A stretch of 17,942 bases of DNA from an uncultured Alcaligenaceae bacterium (GCA_964552815.1 CAZKIQ010000067.1:1-17942); one strand, 5' to 3'. Counted from the first letter of the stretch, positions 601-9,078 are shown. Made by a program: numbers and translations. Notes: generated by a model from the letters alone, not told the origin.

Positions 601-692
601 CGCCCGACCATACCACTAGGGTAATATCGGCGTCGGGTTACCGGAACTCCCGACCCGAAGAACAATTCTCTCCAACTTGAAGCGGCCCCGGC

Positions 693-1769
693 ATGGCAGG
701 CAACACGTTCGGCAAACTCTTCCGCGTCACCACCGCTGGCGTCAGCCACGGGCCCGGCTACCTCTGCATCATCGACGGCTGCCCCGCCGGACTCGAACTG
801 TCCGTCGAAGATCTCCTACCGGACCTGCAACGCCGCAAACCCGGCCAGTCGAAGCTCACGACCCAGCGCGACGAATCCGACACGCCCGAAATCTGGTCCG
901 GCGTTTTCGAGGGGAAAACCGACGGCACCCCGATCGGAATCTCCTTCCGCAACTCCGACCAACGCAGCGGCGACTACGGCGACATCAAAGACAAGTACCG
1001 CCCCGGCCACGCCGACTACACCTTCGACGCCAAGTTCGGGTTCCGCGATTACCGGGGCGGCGGTCGCAGCAGTGCCCGGGAAACCGTCTGCCGGGTCGCC
1101 GCCGGGGCCGTCGCCAAGAAACTCCTCGCCCGGGAAGGGATCCGCGTTCTCGGATATGTCACGCGGGTCGGATCGGTTGCCGCGGAGATTCCGGATCCGA
1201 CGGCCGTGACGATCGAACAGGTCGAAGCGACGCCAGTCCGCTGCCCCGACCCCGGCAGAGCCGCCGAGATGATCGCCCACATCGACGAGGTGCGGAAGAA
1301 TTGCGACTCGATCGGGGGAATCTGCGAACTCGTCGCGGTCGGGGTTCCGCCGGGGCTCGGGGAACCGATCTTCGACAAGCTCAAGGCGGATCTTGGGAAG
1401 GCATTGCTGAGCCTGCCGGCCGTCCTCGGTTTCGAGTACGGAGCGGGCTTCGCCGTCGCCGGGATGCGAGGAAGCGACGCCAACGACGTCTACGAGCCCG
1501 GCTTTCGCACCGCCAGCAACCGGCACGGCGGGATGCTCGGTGGAATCTCGTCCGGGATGCCGATCGTGTGCCGGGTCGCGATCAAACCCACGAGTTCGAT
1601 TCCGCGTTCGCAGAAAACCATCACCCGCACCGGCGAAGCGACAGAAATCCTCGTCCGCGGCCGGCACGACCCCTGCCTCCTCCCCCGCTTCGTGCCAATG
1701 GGGGAAGCGATGGTCGCCCTCGTCCTCGTCGACCACCTCCTCCGAGCAAAATCCTCGCGATTGGGGTAA
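693..1769 (+). CDS. aroC: Chorismate synthase
   Basis: The 358-aa ORF starts MAGNTFGKLFRVTTAGVSHGPG...DGCPAGL and continues GDYGDIKDKYRPGHADYT...RGGGRSSARETV...GGMLGGISSGMPI...RGRHDPC. These are the canonical chorismate synthase signature blocks. ATG start and TAA stop. Confidence 0.95.
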   Translation: MAGNTFGKLFRVTTAGVSHGPGYLCIIDGCPAGLELSVEDLLPDLQRRKPGQSKLTTQRDESDTPEIWSGVFEGKTDGTPIGISFRNSDQRSGDYGDIKDKYRPGHADYTFDAKFGFRDYRGGGRSSARETVCRVAAGAVAKKLLAREGIRVLGYVTRVGSVAAEIPDPTAVTIEQVEATPVRCPDPGRAAEMIAHIDEVRKNCDSIGGICELVAVGVPPGLGEPIFDKLKADLGKALLSLPAVLGFEYGAGFAVAGMRGSDANDVYEPGFRTASNRHGGMLGGISSGMPIVCRVAIKPTSSIPRSQKTITRTGEATEILVRGRHDPCLLPRFVPMGEAMVALVLVDHLLRAKSSRLG

Positions 1770-1780
1770 TTCCGACCTCC

Positions 1781-3052
1781 TCATCGCGGGCTGGGGGTGG
1801 CGGAAGGTTCGGATCGGGGAAGGTACCAACGTGGCGGGTTCTGCGGGTCGACCTCGGCCACGGGCACCCCGGAAGCTCGCAACCCCGCTCCGATCGGGCT
1901 CGCCGGCCGGGTACTGACGACGAGCCGGGCCGTCCGCGTGGCCCCAAATCGGACGGAATTCGGCGCCACCGGCGGAACCACCGGGCTTCCCGCGATGTCC
2001 GCCAGCGACGCGAACGCCTGCCGTACGAAACTCGGCGACGCCCGCGAACTGTGGACTTCCGCCGGTTCCCCGGGCACGACCAGCGTTAGATCCCCCGGCT
2101 CGTCCGCCGTCGCCCACGCCCAGCCGATGCTCACCGTCACCGCCAGCGCCCACTCCAACCGACCGAGATGCTCGCTCGAAACCTCCCCCACAGTCGGCAC
2201 CCAGGGGTCGAGAATCACCACGAGGTTGAGCGGATCCGTCTGGTCGTATTCCCGCACCACGAGTTGGTTGCGGCGGGCCGTCGACTTCCAGTGGATGTCA
2301 CGGGGGCTGTCGCCGAACCGATACGGCCGGACCCCGCGAACATCACCGAGGCCGGGCGTCGGTCGCCGGGACGGTCGGCGATTCCGGCCCTCCCCGCCGC
2401 CCACCCGGATGAGCCAGCGTCGGAGGGATTCCACCCCGACCATCCCAACCGCCGGCAACACCCGCAGGTCCGTGGCCGGTTGCAACGTTCGGGACCACCC
2501 CACCAGCCCGAACGGATACTCCGAACCGACCGTCAGCGGCCCGATTGTGTACCGTCCCCGTTTCGGAAACGACCACGTCACGCGAAGCACCGCCGATTCC
2601 CCGGGCAATAGCGGAGCCAGAAACCACTCCCCCCGCTGACCCGCCGCCGTGTCCGCAATCTTGACCGTCGCCGCCCGCCGGGTCGAGTTCTCCACCTCGA
2701 CCCCGTGGACCACCTCTTCCCCGGCAAAAACCGATGGCGATTCCCGTCGCCGGCCGGTGACACGTCGGATCATCCGCCAGGAGAGGAACCCGTTGACCAC
2801 CACCAACGCGATCATCAGATACCCGAGGAGCAGCAACAGATTGATCGTCTTCGACCACCCGATCGCCGCCATGACAACGGCGACGGGCAGCCAGTGGGCG
2901 AGCGGTTTTCCCGCCCGAAACCGCGGCTTCTCCACCGTGGTCAGCGATGGCTCCTGCTGCATTCCGAACCCCGAAGACGAGGACTGGACCAAGGAACCCG
3001 CCGAAGCCCATCCTATTTCCGAACCGGCGTTGTGCCAGTTTCCCTGCGGCAA
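1781..3052 (-). CDS. DUF58 domain protein (MoxR-associated family; two N-terminal TM helices). The start may be the internal ATG near 2962 (MQQEPSL...).
   Basis: The translation contains a two-TM N-terminus (LPVAVVMAAIGW and INLLLLLGYLMIALVVVNGFL). It then has VFAGEEV..VEN.S and the conserved GDSPRDIHWKSTAR motif typical of DUF58. It is convergent with aroC with an 11-nt gap. Confidence 0.8.
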   Translation of the reverse strand: MPQGNWHNAGSEIGWASAGSLVQSSSSGFGMQQEPSLTTVEKPRFRAGKPLAHWLPVAVVMAAIGWSKTINLLLLLGYLMIALVVVNGFLSWRMIRRVTGRRRESPSVFAGEEVVHGVEVENSTRRAATVKIADTAAGQRGEWFLAPLLPGESAVLRVTWSFPKRGRYTIGPLTVGSEYPFGLVGWSRTLQPATDLRVLPAVGMVGVESLRRWLIRVGGGEGRNRRPSRRPTPGLGDVRGVRPYRFGDSPRDIHWKSTARRNQLVVREYDQTDPLNLVVILDPWVPTVGEVSSEHLGRLEWALAVTVSIGWAWATADEPGDLTLVVPGEPAEVHSSRASPSFVRQAFASLADIAGSPVVPPVAPNSVRFGATRTARLVVSTRPASPIGAGLRASGVPVAEVDPQNPPRWYLPRSEPSATPSPR

Positions 3053-3118
3053 CGCTCCGTTACAGCGCGGTGACAGTGTTCACGCTAGTCTCACAGAAAC
3101 CCTGTTTGGAGACCTCTC

Positions 3119-3652
3119 ATGATCCGCCATGCAACCATCTGCCTCGCCCTTCTGGCCAGTGCGACCGCGGCGAGTTCCACCGCGGTCGCAGACGATGAGA
3201 TCACCCCGGTCCGGCTCCGCCTCACCGTGAGTGCGGAAGAGTATGACCCCATCGCCGGGGGAGCCGGGAAGCTGATTGTCACCTGCCAGAACCGACTGGA
3301 CGAGCCCGTTACCATCCAGCTTGGGCTGCACGCCAACGGCCACCATTGCGGAATCGATCCGGCGAAGACGGCGAAGATCACCATCCCGGCGAAGAAAACC
3401 CTCACGGTTTTTGAAGCGACGTTGGACGAACTCTTCTACGAAGGCTCCGAAGCCAATGACGCAACACCAAGGAAATACGGCTGGAGCTGGTTCCGGCGGT
3501 CCTCCCCGCCTGGCCCACTCCGGAAACAGGGCACACGGGAATTTGTCAAGGAAGTCCGGATCCATGCCGAGGCCACGGTCAAAACGGGAAGTCAAGTCTG
3601 GCAGTCCGAGCTCATTCCCGTGTGGATCAAACCTTCTCTCCCGAAAAAGTGA
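3119..3652 (+). CDS. Secreted hypothetical protein (signal peptide MIRHATICLALLASATAASSTAVA)
   Basis: The 177-aa ORF has a clear Sec signal peptide and AxA cleavage site. It is divergent from the DUF58 gene. I recognise no domain. Confidence 0.55.
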   Translation: MIRHATICLALLASATAASSTAVADDEITPVRLRLTVSAEEYDPIAGGAGKLIVTCQNRLDEPVTIQLGLHANGHHCGIDPAKTAKITIPAKKTLTVFEATLDELFYEGSEANDATPRKYGWSWFRRSSPPGPLRKQGTREFVKEVRIHAEATVKTGSQVWQSELIPVWIKPSLPKK

Positions 3653-3667
3653 TGGGATAAGGTGCCG

Positions 3668-3838
3668 TCACTGCGCGGCGATTTCGATGGCGCTATGCAG
3701 TTCGACGACCGTGCCGCGGCCCACTGCATAGCGGAAGTTGGTTCCGAGGGTGGCCCACCGCTGGGCCGCGTCCACGGCCACGCACCCGACGCTGGCGGTC
3801 AGCGCCAGGGCGACGACCCAGAGCAGCGACCGCCTCAC
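3668..3838 (-). CDS. Possible small exported or lipoprotein-like ORF of about 56 aa with a GTG start. It is not in the track because it is under 60 aa.
   Basis: Minus-strand translation gives VRRSLLWVVALALTASVGCVAVDAAQRWATLGTNFRYAVGRGTVVELHSAIEIAAQ*. It has a signal-like N-terminus with a Cys after the hydrophobic stretch. It is convergent with the 3119-3652 gene. Confidence 0.2.
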   Translation of the reverse strand: MRRSLLWVVALALTASVGCVAVDAAQRWATLGTNFRYAVGRGTVVELHSAIEIAAQ

Positions 3839-4643
3839 GCCGACCCCCTCCGCTGCCGACTATGAGTGTTGGTGTCAAGTCTCCTCAATCATAATCCCTG
3901 CGGCGCGGACCGTCCACGCCGCGGGGGGTGACGCGTTGCCGTTCTTCCGAGCATGGTTTTGCCGACGTCGCTCGCTCACCCTGAGTCAGAGCGGCGGCGG
4001 CAAAACCATGCTGGCTTTCCCTCGCCTCGCGGCCATCAGACGCCAGGCATTTCGTCAGGTGAATCGGGTCGGCGGCGTGTCTCGGGTTCAGCCGCACGAC
4101 CCCAAGTTCGACGTGCGGACCGCCCTGTACCTGGCGACCGGCGTCGACCTCACGGCGGTCGAGGGGATCGACGCGGTCCACGCCCTGACGCTGGTCAGCG
4201 AACTCGGGTGCGACATGACGAAGTGGCCGACGGTCGGCCAGTTCGCGAGTTGGTTGGGGCTGTGCCCGCAGTTCAAGAAGACGGGCGGGAAGGTGCAGTC
4301 GAGCCGGACGCGCAAAGGGAAAGGGCGGGCGGCCCAGGCGTTCCGATTGGCGGCGTGGGGGTTGATGCGGAGCAAGAGTTATCTGGGTGCGTACCTGCGT
4401 CGGCAGCGGAGTCGGTTGGGTGCCCCGAAGGCGATCACGGCAACGGCCCACAAGCTGGCGCGGATCGTGTACCACCTGATGCGGTACGGCGAGGCGTATG
4501 TCAAGAAGGACGAGGAAGCGTATGCCGAGCAGGTGCGGGAGCGGTTGGAGAAGCAGTTGCGTCGGCGAGCGAAAGAGTTGGGGTTCGAGGTGGTGAGGGT
4601 GTCGGCGGAGCCGGACCCGAGTGACACCCCATTGTCAGCGTGA
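3738..4643 (+). pseudogene. 5'-truncated IS110-family transposase. Only the C-terminal Transposase_20-type domain is present, with homology starting near 4090. The N-terminal DEDD catalytic domain is absent.
   Basis: The C-terminal 180 aa read LYLATGVDLTAVEGIDAVHALTLVSELGCDMTKWPTVGQFASWLGLCPQFKKTGGKVQSSRTRKGKGRAAQAFRLAAWGLMRSKSYLGAYLRRQRSRLGAPKAITATAHKLARIVYHLM. This matches the conserved IS110/IS116/IS902 C-terminal domain pattern (L..PG.G...A..L.AE.GD..RF.....A.Y.GL.P...SG......G.I.K.G...LR..L..AA...A.AHKLARI.Y.L). The upstream 100 aa have no DEDD-domain features such as a VGIDVSK-like motif. Confidence 0.7.
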
Positions 4644-4849
4644 CGGCGGTCGGGTTCGGGCCACAACCACAAGGCGGGCGATCCCCGCACCGAGTCCCGC
4701 GGCTCGCGTTCCCGGATGCGAGTATGCCGAAGGACCGCGCCGGTCGTCATCCCGAGGAGCGAAGCTCAAGGGAGCGGGCGATCATCCGCCACCGTCACCC
4801 GAGGAAGTTCCTGGGGCTGGGGCGGCGTCTTGGGTCGTAGGCGTCGGGG
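3944..4849 (+). mobile_element. Remnant of an IS110-family insertion sequence. Boundaries are uncertain. The non-coding 3' flank at 4644-4849 is included.
   Basis: A truncated transposase is followed by about 200 nt of non-coding sequence containing short GC-rich hairpins (gcgggcgatccccgc). The remnant sits at the distal end of the cassette-like array, next to cassette B, whose own attC is not recognisable. Confidence 0.35.
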
Positions 4850-5242
4850 TCATTCCCCGCGGACCAGCAGCCCCTCCGTCCGCCGCCCGTCGGACGTCTC
4901 AAGGACCACGGTGAGGAAGTCGATGCCCGGGCGGGTCTGCTCCTCCCAGTAGACCGTGCCCGCGGCGTCTCGCAGCCGGACGGTGCATGACCCGTGGGGA
5001 CCGGGGTGGTAGTACAGGAACCCCGCCAGCCGCCGGCGGTACGGCCCAGGCAGGTCCGGCGGGTGCTTGACCCGCCAACTGCCCTCGAGGTCCTCGCGGC
5101 AGAGTTCCTCTAGAGTTAGGGTCGGCACCGGCTCGGACTCCGGAGGTCGGGCCTGATCCCGCGGCCACAGCAGGTACGAAATCGCGACCGCCGCAACTGC
5201 CGCGAGCCCCACCAGCCACCACTGCCGACGGAACAATCGCAA
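4850..5242 (-). CDS. Cassette B: small membrane-anchored hypothetical protein of 130 aa, with an N-terminal TM helix and a TTG or GTG start.
   Basis: Translation begins (M)RLFRRQWWLVGLAAVAAVAISYLLW, giving a signal-anchor followed by a soluble domain of about 100 aa with two Cys. The SD-like GGAGGG lies 7-8 nt upstream of the TTG start. GTTCGGC lies about 15 nt upstream of the start, matching the pattern of the other cassettes. Confidence 0.5.
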   Translation of the reverse strand: MRLFRRQWWLVGLAAVAAVAISYLLWPRDQARPPESEPVPTLTLEELCREDLEGSWRVKHPPDLPGPYRRRLAGFLYYHPGPHGSCTVRLRDAAGTVYWEEQTRPGIDFLTVVLETSDGRRTEGLLVRGE

Positions 5243-5257
5243 CCCACGCCCTCCGCC

Positions 5258-5353
5258 GCCGAACGATCGTGCTCACTTGCCGGGGCCGCTGCAAGACTTC
5301 ATACCGCGCGAAACCGTGATGCGGCCCCGGTCAAGTGCAGCACATGGTTAGCG
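5258..5353 (-). repeat. attC-like imperfect palindromic site number 1, of about 96 nt. Read in the gene direction it runs from R'' CGCTAAC to R' GTTCGGC. It sits between cassettes C and B.
   Basis: On the plus strand the arm gccgaacgatcgtgctcacttgccggggccgctgc pairs with gcggccccggtcaagtgcagcacatggttagcgg. Pairing is imperfect, with indels. The element is homologous to the elements at 5831-5928 and 6555-6652. Confidence 0.55.
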
Positions 5354-5376
5354 GTTGGCCCCGCGCGAGGCCGGCA

Positions 5377-5817
5377 TCACAAGCTGGTCCAGATGAGTAG
5401 CGTCTTTTTCTCAAGCTGCGCTGACTCGGCGGTGTCGCCGATGCTGCGCAACAAGTCGAGAACTTCAGATGCGTCCCATCCCTCCAATTCCTCAGTCGCG
5501 CCCCAGCGATCTGCAAGTGATTCGTGCTCGTCTTCTTCCATGCTTGCGATTGAGGCTAGTGCCCCCAGCATTTTTAGTGGAACGATGTCAACCCATGGGC
5601 CTTGATCGCCTTCTGGGATGGTCCGTATCTCGTCGAGCCGTTGTTCGAGTGTGTCTTCCGCCGAGCCAGCCTCAACCAAGGCCCACAGGGTTGCGAGCTT
5701 GATGCGATCCAGCCCACGGTAGAAGAAGCCGTCCCAGGTCTGCGAAGGCTCGTCGGACGCTGCGACTGCGTCAGCTTCCGAGGCATCGGCAACGAGTAAG
5801 TGGTTGAGAACGCCCAT
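5377..5817 (-). CDS. Cassette C: acidic hypothetical protein of 146 aa.
   Basis: ATG start and TGA stop. Translation begins MGVLNHLLVADASEADAVAASDEPSQTWDGFFYRGL.... The protein is strongly acidic, which is typical of immunity-type or antitoxin-type proteins. I recognise no family. Confidence 0.55.
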   Translation of the reverse strand: MGVLNHLLVADASEADAVAASDEPSQTWDGFFYRGLDRIKLATLWALVEAGSAEDTLEQRLDEIRTIPEGDQGPWVDIVPLKMLGALASIASMEEDEHESLADRWGATEELEGWDASEVLDLLRSIGDTAESAQLEKKTLLIWTSL

Positions 5818-5830
5818 GCGAGAACTCTGC

Positions 5831-5928
5831 CGCTAACGCACAAGCTCACCTGCCGGCGGGGCATAGGTGGGCTCCACGTCCCAGAAACCAATGATGCCCC
5901 GCCGGTCAGGTGCAGCGACTGGTTAGCT
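5831..5928 (-). repeat. attC-like imperfect palindromic site number 2, of about 98 nt. Read in the gene direction it runs from R'' AGCTAAC, which overlaps the TAA stop of cassette D, to R' GTTAGCG.
   Basis: On the plus strand the arm cgctaacgcacaagctcacctgccggcggggcat pairs with atgccccgccggtcaggtgcagcgactggttagctg. The central loop is about 27 nt. Confidence 0.55.
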
Positions 5929-6537
5929 GCGGCCGAACACGTCTAACAGGAACTCCCTGCACGAATCGTACAACGGTTGCACCAACGGAGCCAACGCCTC
6001 CCGCCGCCGACAGTTATCCGGACCGAGCGGAATGAGCGATTCGTGATCCATCCACACAACAGGACATTCGCCGTCGGCTCGCCTCTGAACGGCGTCGAAG
6101 CACATCGGCCCCCATCCATCGCCCCATTGTGCCAACGGAACGAAGCCCGCATCGATTAGCGGCCGCCATGCCTTCATTAACTCTCGGAGCGGTTTCAGCG
6201 GCTTCCCTGCCGGCGTGTCCGTCATGAAGATCTGTTGATCATAACGCCGACTCCGCACCTGATCGAACAATTGGAAACGAGCGAGCAAGTACGCCCGAAA
6301 CACCGGCGGGAACTGCACGCCGAACTCGCCTTCGATGACACTCACGTCAGAGTCTTTGAGAGTCGAAGGCAGGACTCGCCATGCAACCCAACCGTCCGCG
6401 TTGACCTCGCCGACTTGCATTTCCGGCGGGACGCCAGCGTCTGCTGGGTCTTCGGCGGCGACGCCCATCCGCCATGCGTCGGTGGCATATGAGTCAAGGA
6501 GCCGGCCGACAAACGCGCTGTCGTCCGCGACGGCCAT
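5923..6537 (-). CDS. Cassette D: SMI1/KNR4 (SUKH-1) family protein, a putative immunity protein. The track ORF extends to 6684, but that extension reads through the attC-like site and overlaps the upstream gene.
   Basis: The block VSVIEGEFGVQFPPVFRAYLL corresponds to the SUKH-1 N-terminal LG..fP.dY..FL block. The block FVPLAQWGDGWGPMCFDAVQRRADGECPVVWMDHESL corresponds to the pFa.d..GN..cfd......p.VvfWDHE block of SMI1/KNR4 proteins. The SD AGGAGG lies 6 nt upstream of the second ATG (MAVADD...). Confidence 0.7.
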   Translation of the reverse strand: MAVADDSAFVGRLLDSYATDAWRMGVAAEDPADAGVPPEMQVGEVNADGWVAWRVLPSTLKDSDVSVIEGEFGVQFPPVFRAYLLARFQLFDQVRSRRYDQQIFMTDTPAGKPLKPLRELMKAWRPLIDAGFVPLAQWGDGWGPMCFDAVQRRADGECPVVWMDHESLIPLGPDNCRRREALAPLVQPLYDSCREFLLDVFGRS

Positions 6538-6554
6538 CGGCATCCTCCTGTAGC

Positions 6555-6652
6555 GGCTAACGCACAAGCTCACCCGCGGCGGCCGCTGATGAGACGTTGA
6601 ACTCTGAAAAACCGTGATGCGGCCGCCGTCGGCGTGCAGCGACTTGTTCGGC
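6555..6652 (-). repeat. attC-like imperfect palindromic site number 3, of about 98 nt. Read in the gene direction it runs from R'' GCCGAAC, 8 nt after the TAA of cassette E, to R' GTTAGCC.
   Basis: On the plus strand the arm ggctaacgcacaagctcacccgcggcggccgctgat pairs with atcacggtt...gcggccgccgtcggcgtgcagcgacttgttcggc. Confidence 0.55.
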
Positions 6653-6659
6653 GAAGACC

Positions 6660-7229
6660 TTAGGATGGGCTGCGTCGCTGCCAACGGAATCCCTTGACAA
6701 ACAGCCTCGATTCAACCGTCCCATCCCATTCGACGTTGAATCCCTCGCGCTCCAATGAGGCACGCAACATTTTTCCGACCTTCACAGCCTTCGCATCGTT
6801 TCCCGAGCGATGCCCAAAACCGATGTAAAGGCCGCTTCCATCTAACGCTCCTTCTTGGTCCTGCTCTGTATAGAAGCAATGGCCAGCGTAGTCGGATTTT
6901 GTGAGACCGGATTCGTGGAAAGCATCCTCGACTTCCTCTATCCCGTCCGATTGGTCGAACCCGGCCCGGTGTAGAGCGATGATTCCTTGGGCTTCAAGCA
7001 TGGTGAATGCCCGATCAAGGCGATCGAAGTCGGTCACCTTCGGCCAGGTCTCTTCCGCCTTCCGCTTGGCCTCGAATTCGCTTCGGATCACTTCAAGCAG
7101 CCATCTCTTGCCAGCGTCGTCGAGTTCGCCGTAATGGTCCCTGATGTAAAGGGCGACGTCTGCCTCGTCGAACTCTCCGCTCCAGAGGAGGGACCGAACG
7201 CAGCTCAGGATGTCCTCGCGAGTCGCCAT
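6660..7229 (-). CDS. Cassette E: hypothetical protein of about 189 aa. ATG at 7229 is the probable start. The GTG at 7241 given in the track overlaps the SD.
   Basis: Translation begins MATREDILSCVRSLLWSGEFDEADVALYIRDHYGELDD.... It continues GIIALHRAGFDQSDGIEEVEDAF...AGHCFYTEQDQE...LYIGFG. The motif pattern resembles, from memory, a family of uncharacterised actinobacterial DUF proteins. The SD GAGGAG lies about 11 nt upstream of the ATG. Confidence 0.6.
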   Translation of the reverse strand: MATREDILSCVRSLLWSGEFDEADVALYIRDHYGELDDAGKRWLLEVIRSEFEAKRKAEETWPKVTDFDRLDRAFTMLEAQGIIALHRAGFDQSDGIEEVEDAFHESGLTKSDYAGHCFYTEQDQEGALDGSGLYIGFGHRSGNDAKAVKVGKMLRASLEREGFNVEWDGTVESRLFVKGFRWQRRSPS

Positions 7230-7246
7230 CGCCCGCACCACTCCTC

Positions 7247-7332
7247 GCCGAACATGGGATTAGATTGCGCCGGCGCAATCTATCACGAACCCGCTCTTAC
7301 GCACCATCTTCAGCCGTAACTCACAGTTCAAG
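7247..7332 (-). repeat. Degenerate fourth attC-like element upstream of cassette E. Its low-coordinate terminal 7-mer is GCCGAAC (GTTCGGC in the gene direction). It contains a perfect 18-nt palindrome, GATTGCGCCGGCGCAATC, at about 7263-7280.
   Basis: The sequence agttcaagctgcggttgtgg at 7325-7344 resembles the R''-proximal ends of sites 1 and 2 (ggttagctgcggccgaac, ggttagcggttggcc). ttgcgccggcgc resembles the arm motif ttgccggggccgc. No minus-strand ORF lies upstream of it. Confidence 0.3.
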
Positions 7333-7577
7333 CTGCGGTTGTGGACGATTTTATGCCACTTACCCGCGCGACCTATCACACTAACGGACCTTGCGCCGAT
7401 TCATACCCGCCCTGAATTTACGTCACCCGTCCAGCGGGCTCTTCACGCCCGCCCGCCCTTGTTCAGCACGTGCGTGTCGATCATCGTGGTACTCACGTCG
7501 TCGTGCCTGAGCAACTCCTGGACCGTGCAAGTGGTGCCGCCGTCGCTCACCGGTCCGTGGGTCGACGGACAGTTTAA

Positions 7578-7895
7578 CCGACGGGAAGACGTTTTGCCAC
7601 CGAAGTCCGCGGCGACATGGTCGCCCCTTCCACTTCGAAACAGGAGATTTTCTTCCGCGGCACCAAGTTTGACATCAAAACGCAGGACGTCAAGAACCTC
7701 AAGGAAGGGGAGTGGAACAGCTTCGAGATCGTCGTGGCCGGCGACCAGGCGGAGTTCTTCGCCAACGGCGAGTCCCTGAAGAAGTTGAAGGTGAAGCCGG
7801 GGAAATCACCGCTGGGAATCCGTGCCGAGTTCGGTCCCATCGAAATCCTCCGAATTCGCGTCAAGGAATCGCCCGCCGTCCCACCAGGCCAGTGA
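7578..7895 (+). pseudogene. C-terminal fragment of about 95-105 aa of a DUF1080 / 3-keto-disaccharide hydrolase (PF06439-like) domain protein. The N-terminal two thirds are absent. An in-frame stop lies at about 7575.
   Basis: The sequence ...QEIFFRGTKFDIKTQDVKNLKEGEWNSFEIVVAGDQAEFFANGESLKKLKVKPGKSPLGIRAEFGPIEILRIRVKE matches the DUF1080 C-terminal pattern (WN...I...G.....NG..V....G.I.LQ.H.....FRNI.IK.L). The upstream frames contain none of the N-terminal part of the domain. Confidence 0.45.
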
Positions 7896-7926
7896 GATCT
7901 CGCCAGATGCCGGGCTCAGCGAAGGG

Positions 7927-9078
7927 TCAGCGGACTTCCGCCCAGCGTTGTTCCCGGTGGCTTCGCAGAATCGCCTCGCAAAGCTGCACCTCGCGGTGGC
8001 CGTCGGCGAAGGTCGGGTAGAGGGGCGTCGCCGATTTGCCATGGTCGATGTCGTGGTAGATCGCCCGGTAGAGTTGCTTGAAGGAATCGGGGAAACCCTC
8101 GGCATGGCCGCCGGGGTAGTCGGCGAATTTCTGGGCGGTCGGGCCGACCAGCCCGGGGTCGCGGGTCAGGGACTCGTTGGGCCGCAACCGGTGGCCGACC
8201 TGCAAGAGATTCGGTTCCTCGCTATCCCAGGCAAGCGAGGTTTTCCCGCCTGCGAGGTCGAATCGGAGGCAGTTCTTCCGGCCCGCGGTCACCTGCGAGA
8301 CGGTCAGACACCCCCGCAACCCGCCTGCAAATCGCAGCAGAATCGAACCATAGTCTTCCGTCTGGATCGGAACCGCCTCCGCGGGTTGGTGCCGATGCCC
8401 CGCCGTGCCGGAGAACGTTTCCGACCCGCCAGACGGGCGGTACCGCGTCTCGTGGACGGTTCGCAAATCCGCGCAGACGGCGGTGATTTCCCGTCCCGTG
8501 ATGAAGCAGACCGTATCGAGCCAGTGGGTCCCGATGTCCGCGATGGCTCGCAATTCCCCGCCATCCGCGGCGAGCACCCGCCAGTTGAAATCGGTGACGT
8601 AGAGGAGCCAGTCTTGCAGGTACGAGCCGGTGACGTGGAAGAGCTCGCCGAGGTCGCCGGCGTGGACCCGGTCGCGGGCTTCGAGGACGAGCGGGTAGAA
8701 GCGGATGTTGTAGTTGACCGCCGTCACCAGGTGGGGGTTGGCGTTGGCGAGAGCCACCAGTTTCGCGGTCTCCGCGGTGGTCATCGCCAGGGGTTTCTCG
8801 CAGACCACGTGCTTCCCCGCGGCGATGGCGGACTCACACTGGGCCAGGTGGTGGCGGTTGGGGGATGCGATGTGGACCACCGTGACGGCCGGGTCCGCGA
8901 GAATCTCGGGGAAGCTGGCATACGCCTTCTCCAGCCCCAGAGATTCCGCGGCCTTGCGAGACTTCTCCGGGCTCGAACCGAGAATCCCGACGACCCGCCG
9001 GCCGAGACGGCGCAATGCCTCGACGTGAACCGGCCCGATAAAGCCTGTGCCAACAATCGCTGTACCGCTTTCCCGCAT
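7927..9078 (-). CDS. Gfo/Idh/MocA family NAD(P)-dependent oxidoreductase. The probable start is [15 protein letters not shown] at 9078. The track ORF extends to 9195.
   Basis: An N-terminal Rossmann motif [12 protein letters not shown] is followed by EKP (CEKPLAMT) and the typical Gfo/Idh/MocA C-terminal alpha/beta domain. G/C third-position bias is strong. Confidence 0.9.

What the first reader, a model, noticed from the sequence alone, without database searches (positions are those of the whole stretch)
3738..4849. Truncated IS110-family transposase abutting the distal end of the cassette array
Only the C-terminal domain of an IS110-family transposase remains. The DEDD catalytic half is deleted. 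The remnant lies directly downstream of cassette B. This is the only cassette with no recognisable attC within about 200 nt of its stop. A near-match to the expected inverse core (plus strand gttcggg, about 4655-4661) lies 190 nt away and only 12 nt from the transposase stop. A subgroup of IS110-family elements (IS1111-attC group) is known to insert specifically into attC sites. Insertion into the attC of cassette B followed by decay is consistent with that. It also marks 3.7-7.6 kb as a mobile or accessory region. If the element was IS1111-like, the 4644-4849 flank could carry remnants of its 3' non-coding guide/bridge RNA.
Basis: partly seen in the sequence, partly recalled or inferred. Interest (0 to 1): 0.55.

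Follow-up and report, generated by a model that had tools for sequence, protein, structure and literature searches.

The report
Dead attC-targeting IS110 element scar
This is the dead right-hand third of an RNA-guided insertion sequence that once jumped into the recombination site of the last gene cassette of a decayed integron; it comes from a different branch of the IS110 family than the known cassette-site hunters, which makes it a modestly interesting case of convergence.

Summary
Window 4090-4822 (+) is the 3' third of an IS110-family element: 184 C-terminal transposase codons (Pfam Transposase_20 only), a 176-nt 3' non-coding region and an intact right end. The DEDD half is absent from the whole window.

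The remnant sits inside the attC of cassette B. Reading on the cassette strand, the order is stop codon, 23 nt, GCCG, then the IS right end. A 75%-identical cassette in a metagenome contig has stop codon, 24 nt, GCCGAAC and a full attC.

Intact relatives in about 15 lineages from Gemmatales MAGs and metagenomes are inserted at this same position (GTT^C^GGC) and in this same orientation.

The element is not an IS1111-attC group member. Its intact relative matches ISKpn4 at only E=0.066. Its nearest ISfinder relatives are ISAzo22 and ISCARN20 (43-44% identity), which belong to the IS110 group with a left-end bridge RNA.

The family's 5' non-coding region holds a conserved structured RNA. One 6-nt segment of it matches the attC flank and covaries with it. 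The 3' region shows no conserved fold.

Caveat: the left junction (3860-4090) is supported by a single assembly only.

The parts
4090..4646 (+). Transposase remnant: the 184 C-terminal codons plus stop (equivalent to aa 335-507 of the 520-aa intact relative). It contains the Transposase_20 domain. The reading frame is still open.
   Evidence: Pfam hit; tblastn; blastn homology to all IS copies starts at 4088-4092
4647..4822 (+). 3' non-coding region and right end of the IS. Conserved block GGACCGCGCCGG at 4732-4743. Right inverted repeat AAGTTCCTGG at 4805-4814. Terminal CTGGGG is tandemly duplicated (4811-4816 and 4817-4822).
   Evidence: 82.8% identity to L019 over 4090-4817; the right-end motif GAAGTTCCTGGGG|CGGC is conserved in about 25 loci; no conserved fold
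4823..4826 (-). All that is left of cassette B's attC: GCCG on the cassette strand, the first 4 nt of the R'' box GCCGAAC. The C at 4823 (G on the cassette strand) could belong to either the IS or the target.
   Evidence: Comparison with the intact homologous cassette in L052; uninterrupted attCs end ...TGGTTCGGC
4827..4849 (-). 23-nt spacer between the cassette B stop codon and its former attC
   Evidence: Aligns with the 24-nt spacer in L052
4850..5242 (-). Cassette B ORF (130 aa, N-terminal membrane anchor, no Pfam hit). Its attC was destroyed, so it is now immobilised.
3860..4089 (.). Orphan 230-nt segment that replaces the IS left part and the attC body. It contains a 24-nt-arm hairpin (3950-3973 / 3989-4012) and a second GC-rich hairpin near 3895-3927. 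Its origin is unknown.
   Evidence: No similarity to any IS copy or locus; hairpin; the 98.8%-identical strain contig L057 diverges from the window at 3859
5251..5353 (+). attC of cassette 3. The + strand is the folding (bottom) strand; the cassette ORFs are on the minus strand.
   Evidence: CM R1, 93.8 bits on + against 35.7 on the minus strand. This site was in the training set.
5825..5928 (+). attC of cassette 2
   Evidence: CM R1, 82.6 bits
6549..6652 (+). attC of cassette 1 (DUF6891 cassette)
   Evidence: CM R1, 88.9 bits; DUF6891 hit
7247..7282 (+). Candidate attI: GCCGAAC (7247-7253) followed by a perfect 22-bp palindrome TAGATTGCGCCGGCGCAATCTA (7261-7282), at the head of the array
   Evidence: Read from the sequence; 88% match to L001 4254-4295, where GCCGAAC also precedes the palindrome. 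That this is attI is inferred.
7452..7599 (-). Integron-integrase pseudogene. It covers the equivalent of IntI1 aa 229-320, is frameshifted, and has the catalytic Tyr replaced by Asp. It is in the same orientation as the cassettes and is cut off upstream.
   Evidence: tblastn with IntI1: aa 296-320 at 76% identity, E=2e-6; aa 229-263 in another frame, E=0.013

Best explanation
An IS110-group insertion sequence, of a lineage common in Gemmatales, inserted into the R'' box of the attC belonging to the last surviving cassette (B) of a chromosomal integron. This IS type has a DEDD/Tnp recombinase and a bridge-type guide RNA encoded in its left end.

The insertion point is GCC^G^AAC on the cassette strand, which is GTT^C^GGC on the window + strand. 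The transposase is antisense to the cassettes, and the IS right end faces the cassette ORF.

A later deletion or rearrangement removed about 1.3 kb of the IS: the left end, the guide RNA and the DEDD half of the transposase. It also removed the body of the attC and whatever lay beyond it.

What is left (4090-4822) is an inert scar. It has no catalytic domain, no guide RNA and no left end. Cassette B can no longer be excised, because its attC is gone.

Shown: the truncation, the right end, the insertion position, the attC specificity of intact relatives, and the family placement. Inferred: RNA-guided target choice through the 5' non-coding RNA, and the order and mechanism of the later deletion.
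For: (1) Truncation. Only PF02371 is present and no N-terminal half exists in the window. The intact relative L006 has both PF01548 and PF02371.

(2) Right end. GAAGTTCCTGGGG|CGGC is conserved in about 25 loci, and the flanks diverge immediately after it. The window carries it at 4804-4826.

(3) Pre-insertion site. L052 holds a 75%-identical cassette B homologue followed by TGA, 24 nt, then GCCGAAC and an intact attC (CM 86.6 bits). The window has TGA, 23 nt, GCCG, then the IS.

(4) Target specificity of relatives. In L006-L009, L025, L003, L019, L020, L046, L030, L026, L005, L021, L023 and L024 the IS left end abuts ...GCAGCG-NN-(T/G)GGTT|C of an attC. The attCs lie on the same strand as the transposase gene.

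(5) Family placement. 44% identity over 439 aa to ISAzo22 (E=1.7e-116) and 43% to ISCARN20. Both are classed IS110 with a left-end bridge RNA.

(6) Guide RNA. The 5' non-coding region folds into a conserved structure (RNAalifold -61 kcal/mol, 49 pairs, 14 with compensatory changes). Its segment nnGGTTCGA equals the target's last 5 nt plus C in 13 of 15 lineages. Three of these have variant targets with matching variant guides (GGGTTC twice, TTGTTC once).

(7) Precedent. ISKpn4 on pAR-0405 sits at the same end of an attC, in the same orientation, and at the end of an array.
Against: - The left junction (3860-4090) is backed only by the one assembly the window comes from. Logan contigs of the same strain stop at 3736 and at 4577, and a 98.8%-identical ENA contig diverges at 3859. 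The truncation could therefore be an assembly join.
- The 230 nt that replace the IS left part have no identifiable origin.
- No donor-binding guides and no right-target guide could be identified in the 5' RNA.
- Two lineages (L030, L024) have a 1-nt guide/target mismatch.
- RNA guidance was never tested experimentally for this lineage.
Confidence: 0.82

Rival explanations
1. The remnant derives from a member of the IS1111-attC group (ISPa21, ISPst6 or ISKpn4 type), with its guide (seek/bridge) RNA in the 3' non-coding region.
For: It shows the same behaviour as ISKpn4: attC R''-end insertion, transposase antisense to the cassettes, and a position at the end of an array. It has a 10-bp subterminal inverted repeat (CCAGGAACTT / AAGTTCCTGG) and a 175-nt 3' non-coding region.
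Against: - BLASTP to ISKpn4 gives E=0.066 and to ISPa25 E=0.003, with no full-length alignment.
- The nearest ISfinder relatives, ISAzo22 and ISCARN20, are only 17-22% identical to IS1111 members. They are classed IS110 with a left-end bridge RNA.
- The left terminal extension is 31-35 nt, not 6-7 nt.
- The conserved structured RNA with the target match is in the 5' region. The 3' region has no conserved fold.
- The insertion point is inside the R'' core, not about 7 nt 3' of it as for ISKpn4.
Confidence: 0.03
2. The 'truncation' is an assembly artefact. The genome carries a full-length IS at cassette B's attC, and the assembler joined the IS 3' part to an unrelated contig.
For: Independent assemblies break at 3736 and at 4577, and a near-identical strain diverges at 3859. 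IS copies are multi-copy repeats that fragment assemblies; most homologues sit on 1-3 kb contigs.
Against: - The join at 4089/4090 is not at a repeat boundary shared with other window sequence.
- The 230 nt to the left are unique and not IS-like.
- 3' remnants that keep the right end, and that are not at contig ends, recur in other loci (L017, L041, L044, L047, L015). Real decay of this kind is therefore common.
- The right-end CTGGGG duplication also suggests an old, inactive copy.
Confidence: 0.12
3. The IS remnant merely lies next to the array by chance and never interrupted an attC. Cassette B would be an ordinary gene without an attC.
For: No attC body is present anywhere left of the remnant.
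Against: - The right end abuts GCCG exactly where the homologous cassette in L052 starts its attC.
- All intact relatives sit at this same position in attCs.
- The spacer length (23 nt against 24 nt) and its sequence are conserved.
Confidence: 0.02

Closest known systems
IS1111-attC group (ISPa21, ISPst6, ISKpn4, ISPa25, ISUnCu1; Tetu & Holmes 2008; Post & Hall 2009; Siddiquee et al. 2024, PMC11187229)
   Same: - Both are DEDD-transposase ISs of the IS110 superfamily that insert site-specifically at the R''-proximal end of attC sites.
- Both insert in one orientation: the transposase antisense to the cassettes, the right end towards the cassette ORF, and the left end towards the attC body. This was checked here on ISKpn4 in pAR-0405.
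- Degenerate footprints at array termini are described for Pseudomonas arrays. That point rests on my recollection of the Tetu & Holmes abstract; the paper was not held.
- Both have subterminal inverted repeats.
   Different: - The transposases are unrelated beyond the superfamily level (E=0.066; 520 or about 440 aa against 347 aa).
- The guide RNA is in the left end, not the right end.
- The left terminal extension is 31-35 nt with a covarying hairpin, not 6-7 nt.
- The insertion is inside the R'' core (GCC^G^AAC), not about 7 nt downstream of it.
- The hosts are Planctomycetota with an integron integrase in the same orientation as the cassettes, not Pseudomonas or class 1 integrons.
IS110-group bridge-RNA elements (IS621; ISAzo22 / ISCARN20 cluster; Durrant et al. 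2024, PMC11208160)
   Same: - The nearest ISfinder relatives are ISAzo22 and ISCARN20 (43-44% identity, full length).
- Both have a long left-end non-coding region (about 294 nt) with a conserved, structured RNA of about 190 nt.
- A segment identical to the top-strand left target flank plus the junction base covaries with the target, as expected of a left target guide.
- The N-terminal domain matches the IS621 and ISCro4 structures (E=1e-8).
   Different: - It has a 10-bp subterminal inverted repeat and a substantial 3' non-coding region (about 175 nt), features said to typify IS1111.
- Only a single junction base (C) is shared by both junctions, rather than a clear core dinucleotide.
- No right-target guide or donor guides were identified.
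- No Rfam match.
- The target is a structured recombination site (attC). I found no report of this for IS110-group elements in the held literature.
Group IIC-attC introns (PMC3001079)
   Same: They are another mobile-element lineage that evolved specific insertion into attC sites and colonises cassette arrays.
   Different: They are retroelements (ribozyme plus reverse transcriptase) with an unrelated mechanism. Nothing intron-like is present here.

Membership tests
IS110 superfamily (DEDD transposases) | C-terminal Transposase_20 (PF02371) domain | tested here: met
   E=3.8e-12 in the window remnant
IS110 superfamily (DEDD transposases) | N-terminal DEDD/RuvC-like domain (PF01548) | tested here: not met
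   Absent from the window copy. Present in the intact relative L006 (E=3.8e-24). The window copy is therefore a truncated derivative, not a functional member.
IS1111 group / IS1111-attC subgroup | Transposase related over its full length to IS1111-type transposases (ISKpn4, ISPst6, ISPa21, ISPa25) | tested here: not met
   BLASTP E=0.066 (ISKpn4) and 0.003 (ISPa25), local matches only. The closest ISfinder relatives are 17-22% identical to IS1111 members.
IS1111 group / IS1111-attC subgroup | Subterminal inverted repeats of 11-13 bp with terminal extensions of 6-7 bp (left) and 3 bp (right) | tested here: not met
   A 10-bp perfect repeat exists (CCAGGAACTT / AAGTTCCTGG). However, the left extension is 31-35 nt and the right one 2-4 nt. 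ISKpn4 on L058 shows the canonical 7 and 3.
IS1111 group / IS1111-attC subgroup | Guide (seek/bridge) RNA encoded in the non-coding region downstream of the transposase gene | tested here: not met
   The 3' region has no conserved structure. The structured RNA with the covarying target match is upstream of the gene.
IS1111 group / IS1111-attC subgroup | Site- and orientation-specific insertion at one end of attC | tested here: met
   About 15 lineages of intact relatives plus the window remnant. This is shared behaviour, not evidence of membership.
IS110 group (bridge RNA in the left end) | Transposase clusters with IS110-group members | tested here: met
   43-44% identity over about 435 aa to ISAzo22 and ISCARN20, which Durrant et al. 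Suppl. Table 5 lists as IS110/LE. No full phylogeny was built.
IS110 group (bridge RNA in the left end) | Structured non-coding RNA in the left end whose loops base-pair with target and donor | tested here: inconclusive
   Conserved fold with 14 compensatory pairs. A 6-nt left-target match covaries in 3 variant lineages and is exact in 13 of 15. The right-target and donor guides were not found. RNA expression and binding cannot be tested here. This part is absent from the window copy.
Integron (context of the remnant) | attC sites with a conserved imperfect-palindrome structure flanking promoterless ORFs in one orientation | tested here: met
   Three attCs. 18 paired positions, 8 with compensatory changes across 14 sites. 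Extrahelical bases lie on the 3' arm of the + strand.
Integron (context of the remnant) | Functional integron integrase adjacent to attI | tested here: not met
   Only a frameshifted C-terminal pseudogene with Tyr changed to Asp. The array is effectively a degenerate integron or attC cluster.

The most novel reading that the evidence does not exclude
A lineage of IS110-group elements (left-end bridge RNA, ISAzo22/ISCARN20-like, about 440-520-aa recombinase) that is widespread in Gemmatales has evolved attC targeting independently of the IS1111-attC group. Its guide RNA would read the conserved R'' box (UGGUUC) of the local attC family. The lineage would colonise, and then decay within, the sedentary same-orientation integrons of Planctomycetota. 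The window holds one of its fossils. This would be a second, convergent origin of integron parasitism within the DEDD/bridge-recombinase superfamily. It would also be a natural bridge RNA aimed at a recombination site that normally acts as folded single-stranded DNA.
Probability: 0.6. Interest if true: 0.6.

Novelty: new variant of a known kind. Interest (0 to 1): 0.5.

Why it matters
The window copy is a dead scar with no function. Its only local consequence is that cassette B lost its attC and the array ends there.

The value lies in what the scar led to. attC-specific insertion was attributed only to the IS1111 group in the literature I could search. Here it also occurs in an IS110-group lineage with its guide RNA at the other end of the element and an unrelated transposase sequence.

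That finding supports three points:
- attC sites act as recurrent 'safe harbours' for RNA-guided ISs.
- The lineage provides a family of natural bridge-RNA and target pairs with visible guide/target covariation.
- IS invasion followed by decay may help explain why chromosomal integrons in Planctomycetota are often degenerate.

Tried and rejected
- Rfam on window 3000-8500 and on the intact IS in L006: nothing meaningful.
- The hairpin at 3950-4012 as a repeat, MITE or attC: no other copy in the window or in any locus, and no CM hit. It is also 78 nt left of the true homology breakpoint, not at it.
- Apparent half-attC at 676-713: explained by the conserved MAGNTFG start of chorismate synthase. 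No CM hit.
- Search for donor guides (reverse complement or same sense of the first 16 nt of each left end within its own 5' RNA): own-lineage matches were no better than cross-lineage ones.
- A right-target guide could not be assigned by eye.
- Looking for the alternative right flank of strain L057 elsewhere in the window, to prove an island indel: not found.
- Looking up the annotated 211-aa protein P0001 for other contigs: not on record.
- Tetu & Holmes 2008 (PMC2447020) is not held. What I say about its content comes from memory of the abstract.
- The apparent bias towards 3' remnants in other loci cannot be interpreted, because every search was seeded with the C-terminal fragment.

Full report
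**What is in the window**

The window is about 65% G+C and Gemmataceae-like. Hits are named Urbifossiella, Gemmataceae and Fimbriiglobus.

ORF 3738-4643(+) carries only the C-terminal IS110-family domain, Transposase_20 (E=3.8e-12). Longer homologues, and a 520-aa intact relative, align only to window 4089-4607. That stretch corresponds to aa 335-507 of the intact protein. No piece of the DEDD half is found anywhere in the 17.9 kb.

At the nucleotide level, similarity to about 45 related loci begins abruptly at 4088-4092. So 3738-4089 is not IS sequence. The long ORF, and the annotated 211-aa protein starting at 4008, are accidental extensions in GC-rich DNA.

Downstream of the stop codon (4644-4646) the similarity continues. 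The closest copy, L019, is 82.8% identical over 4090-4817. The similarity ends in a terminal motif, GAAGTTCCTGGGG|CGGC, that is almost invariant in about 25 loci. Flanks diverge immediately after it.

In the window this right end lies at 4803-4816, followed by a 6-nt tandem duplication (CTGGGG) reaching 4822. Then come CGGC (4823-4826), 23 nt, and the stop codon of the minus-strand ORF 4850-5242 ('cassette B').

**The surrounding structure is a degenerate integron**

Three sites share one architecture on the + strand: 5251-5353, 5825-5928 and 6549-6652. The pattern is GCCGAAC/GCTAAC-N5-GCTCAsC-stem ... stem-TGCAGCG-NN-TGGTTmGs.

The same family occurs many times in Gemmatales MAG and metagenome loci. 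It folds as an imperfect hairpin of 18 pairs, 8 of them with compensatory changes. There are two bulged bases on the 3' arm of the + strand.

A covariance model built from 14 sites scores the three window sites at 83-94 bits on the + strand, against 20-36 bits on the minus strand. It finds no further site in the window.

Each attC follows a minus-strand ORF:
- DUF6891, 6660-7229
- a weak SUKH-like ORF, 5923-6537
- 5377-5817
- cassette B, 4850-5242

At the head of the array there is GCCGAAC followed by a perfect 22-bp palindrome (7247-7282). This arrangement is conserved in locus L001.

Beyond it lies an integron-integrase pseudogene on the same strand as the cassettes. IntI1 aa 296-320 match window 7526-7452 at 76% identity (E=2e-6), with the catalytic Tyr replaced by Asp. 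IntI1 aa 229-263 match in another frame.

Cassette B is the only cassette without an attC.

**The IS sits inside cassette B's attC**

A metagenome contig (L052) carries a 75%-identical homologue of cassette B. After its stop codon come 24 nt and then GCCGAAC, the start of an intact attC (86.6 bits).

Read on the cassette strand, the window has the stop codon, a similar 23-nt spacer, GCCG, and then the IS right end. The element therefore interrupted the R'' box, at GCC^G^AAC. Only its first four bases survive.

However, it lies 12 nt after the transposase stop codon, inside the IS. It is conserved in L019 and is not part of any attC.

**Intact relatives do the same thing**

A long-read MAG holds five nearly identical full copies (L006-L009 and L011). 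Each is about 2.03 kb: a 294-nt 5' non-coding region, a 520-aa transposase with PF01548 and PF02371, and a 175-nt 3' non-coding region.

In four of these copies the left end abuts an attC at ...TGCAGCG-NN-TGGTT|C. The same junction is seen in sequence-distinct lineages: L025, L003, L019, L020, L046, L030, L026/L005, L021, L023 and L024.

In every case:
- the attCs lie on the same strand as the transposase gene;
- cassette ORFs are antisense to it;
- the right end is followed by CGGC.

Uninterrupted attCs read TGGTTCGGC. The insertion point is therefore GTT^C^GGC, with a single ambiguous base.

**It is not an IS1111-attC element**

BLASTP of the intact transposase against sequences taken from the supplement of Siddiquee et al. 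2024 gave:
- ISAzo22: 44% identity over 439 aa (E=1.7e-116)
- ISCARN20: 43% identity
- ISKpn4: E=0.066
- ISPa25: E=0.003

ISAzo22 and ISCARN20 are 17-22% identical to IS1111 members. Durrant et al. 2024 list them as 'IS110, bridge RNA in LE', whereas ISKpn4, ISPa21 and ISPa25 are listed as 'IS1111, RE'. The N-terminal domain matches the IS621 and ISCro4 structures.

For a direct comparison I examined ISKpn4 in plasmid pAR-0405. It also sits at the R'' end of an attC (that of qacL). Its transposase is antisense to the cassettes, and it lies at the end of the array. But its insertion point is about 7 nt 3' of the R'' core (TCTAACAATTCAC|IS|TTCAAGCC). It also has the canonical 7-nt and 3-nt terminal extensions around its inverted repeats.

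The Gemmatales lineage has a 10-bp inverted repeat (CCAGGAACTT / AAGTTCCTGG). Its left extension is 31-35 nt and contains a hairpin whose stem changes in a compensatory way between lineages. I judged that by eye.

**Where the guide RNA is**

The 5' non-coding region is strongly conserved across 11 lineages. It gives a consensus fold of 49 pairs, 14 of them with compensatory changes (-61 kcal/mol).

Within it, the segment CCCG-nnGGTTCGA-yTGGG contains a 6-mer equal to the last five target bases plus the junction C. This matches in 13 of 15 lineages. The three lineages with variant targets carry the matching variant:
- L020 and L046: target GGGTTC, RNA UGGGUUC
- L027: target TTGTTC, RNA UUUGUUC

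L030 and L024 each have one mismatch.

This is what a left target guide of a bridge RNA should look like, according to the definitions in Durrant et al.. I could not find the right-target guide or the donor guides. The function of the RNA is inferred, not shown.

The 3' non-coding region is 48% conserved and has no consensus fold. A profile of the 5' region finds 27 copies in the loci and none in the window. The window remnant has therefore lost its guide RNA. The 4644-4849 flank holds only the 3' non-coding region, the right end and 27 nt of cassette sequence.

**What happened on the left**

About 1.3 kb of the IS and the attC body are replaced by 230 nt of unique sequence with two strong hairpins (3860-4089).

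A 98.8%-identical strain (L057) diverges from the window at 3859. Logan contigs identical to the window stop at 3736 and at 4577. The junction therefore rests on one assembly, and I give about 12% to an assembly artefact.

Against the artefact reading, internal 3' remnants that keep the right end recur in other loci (L017, L041, L044, L047, L015). The right end of the window copy also carries a small duplication, as does the remnant in L047.

**Verdict**

The family assignment, the proposed attC core and the idea of 3' guide-RNA remnants are wrong.

In this window the feature is an inert scar. The lineage it belongs to appears to be a second, independent attC-targeting branch of the bridge-recombinase superfamily. 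I found no report of such a branch in the searchable literature.

Noticed in passing
window 7452-7599 (minus strand): Integron-integrase pseudogene in the same orientation as the cassettes. The IntI-specific patch (DPRTGERRRHH) and the C-terminal box II are in two different frames, and the catalytic Tyr is replaced by Asp. It is cut off upstream by a + strand ORF (7617-7895) with a weak 3-keto-disaccharide hydrolase hit.
   Followed up: partly
window 7247-7282; L001 4254-4295: GCCGAAC followed by a perfect 22-bp palindrome, TAGATTGCGCCGGCGCAATCTA, at the head of the array. It is conserved at 88% in a Fimbriiglobus MAG contig. This is a candidate attI or integrase-binding site.
   Followed up: partly
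window 3860-4089: Orphan 230-nt segment with a 24-nt-arm hairpin (3950-3973 / 3989-4012) and a second GC hairpin (about 3895-3927). A 98.8%-identical strain (L057) diverges exactly at 3859, and four Logan assemblies all stop at 3736. Origin unexplained.
   Followed up: partly
window 4811-4822; L047 about 1204-1217: The terminal CTGGGG of the IS right end is tandemly duplicated in the window remnant. An independent, more truncated remnant (L047) has a 7-nt duplication (CCTGGGG) at the same place.
   Followed up: no
L006 2706-2745 and the equivalent left ends in L003, L019, L020, L022, L025, L026, L027, L030, L031, L046: Between the left terminus and the left inverted repeat, every lineage has a short hairpin. 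Its stem sequence differs but stays complementary (for example GGCCAGC/GCTGGCC, GCGGC/GCCGC, GGCTCGC/GCGAGCC). Function unknown.
   Followed up: partly
L027 1706-1790: An IS right end is followed after only 19 nt (CGGCGACCAGCACCTTGTT) by an IS left end. This could be tandem copies separated by a minimal target, or a collapsed or circular assembly. The guide of this lineage (TTTGTTC) matches this unusual TTGTT target.
   Followed up: partly
L017, L041, L044, L047, L015, L016, L043, L045, L046: Many other loci hold internally truncated or deleted copies of the same IS that keep the right end. Decay of this element is therefore common. The apparent 3' bias is confounded by the C-terminal search query.
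   Followed up: partly
window 5923-6537 and 6660-7229 (minus strand): The cassette ORFs look like immunity-type proteins: DUF6891 (E=8e-51) and a weak SMI1/KNR4 (SUKH) match (E=0.009).
   Followed up: no
L050/L051 3001-3520 (Gemmata obscuriglobus chromosome): A 62%-identical homologue of cassette B occurs in G. obscuriglobus. It is followed by a different palindromic site (GGTTAAC...GGCTAAC) that the attC model does not detect, possibly another attC type.
   Followed up: no
window 676-713: A 38-nt inverted match to the left half of attC3. It overlaps the start of chorismate synthase (MAGNTFG...) and is most likely coincidental.
   Followed up: yes
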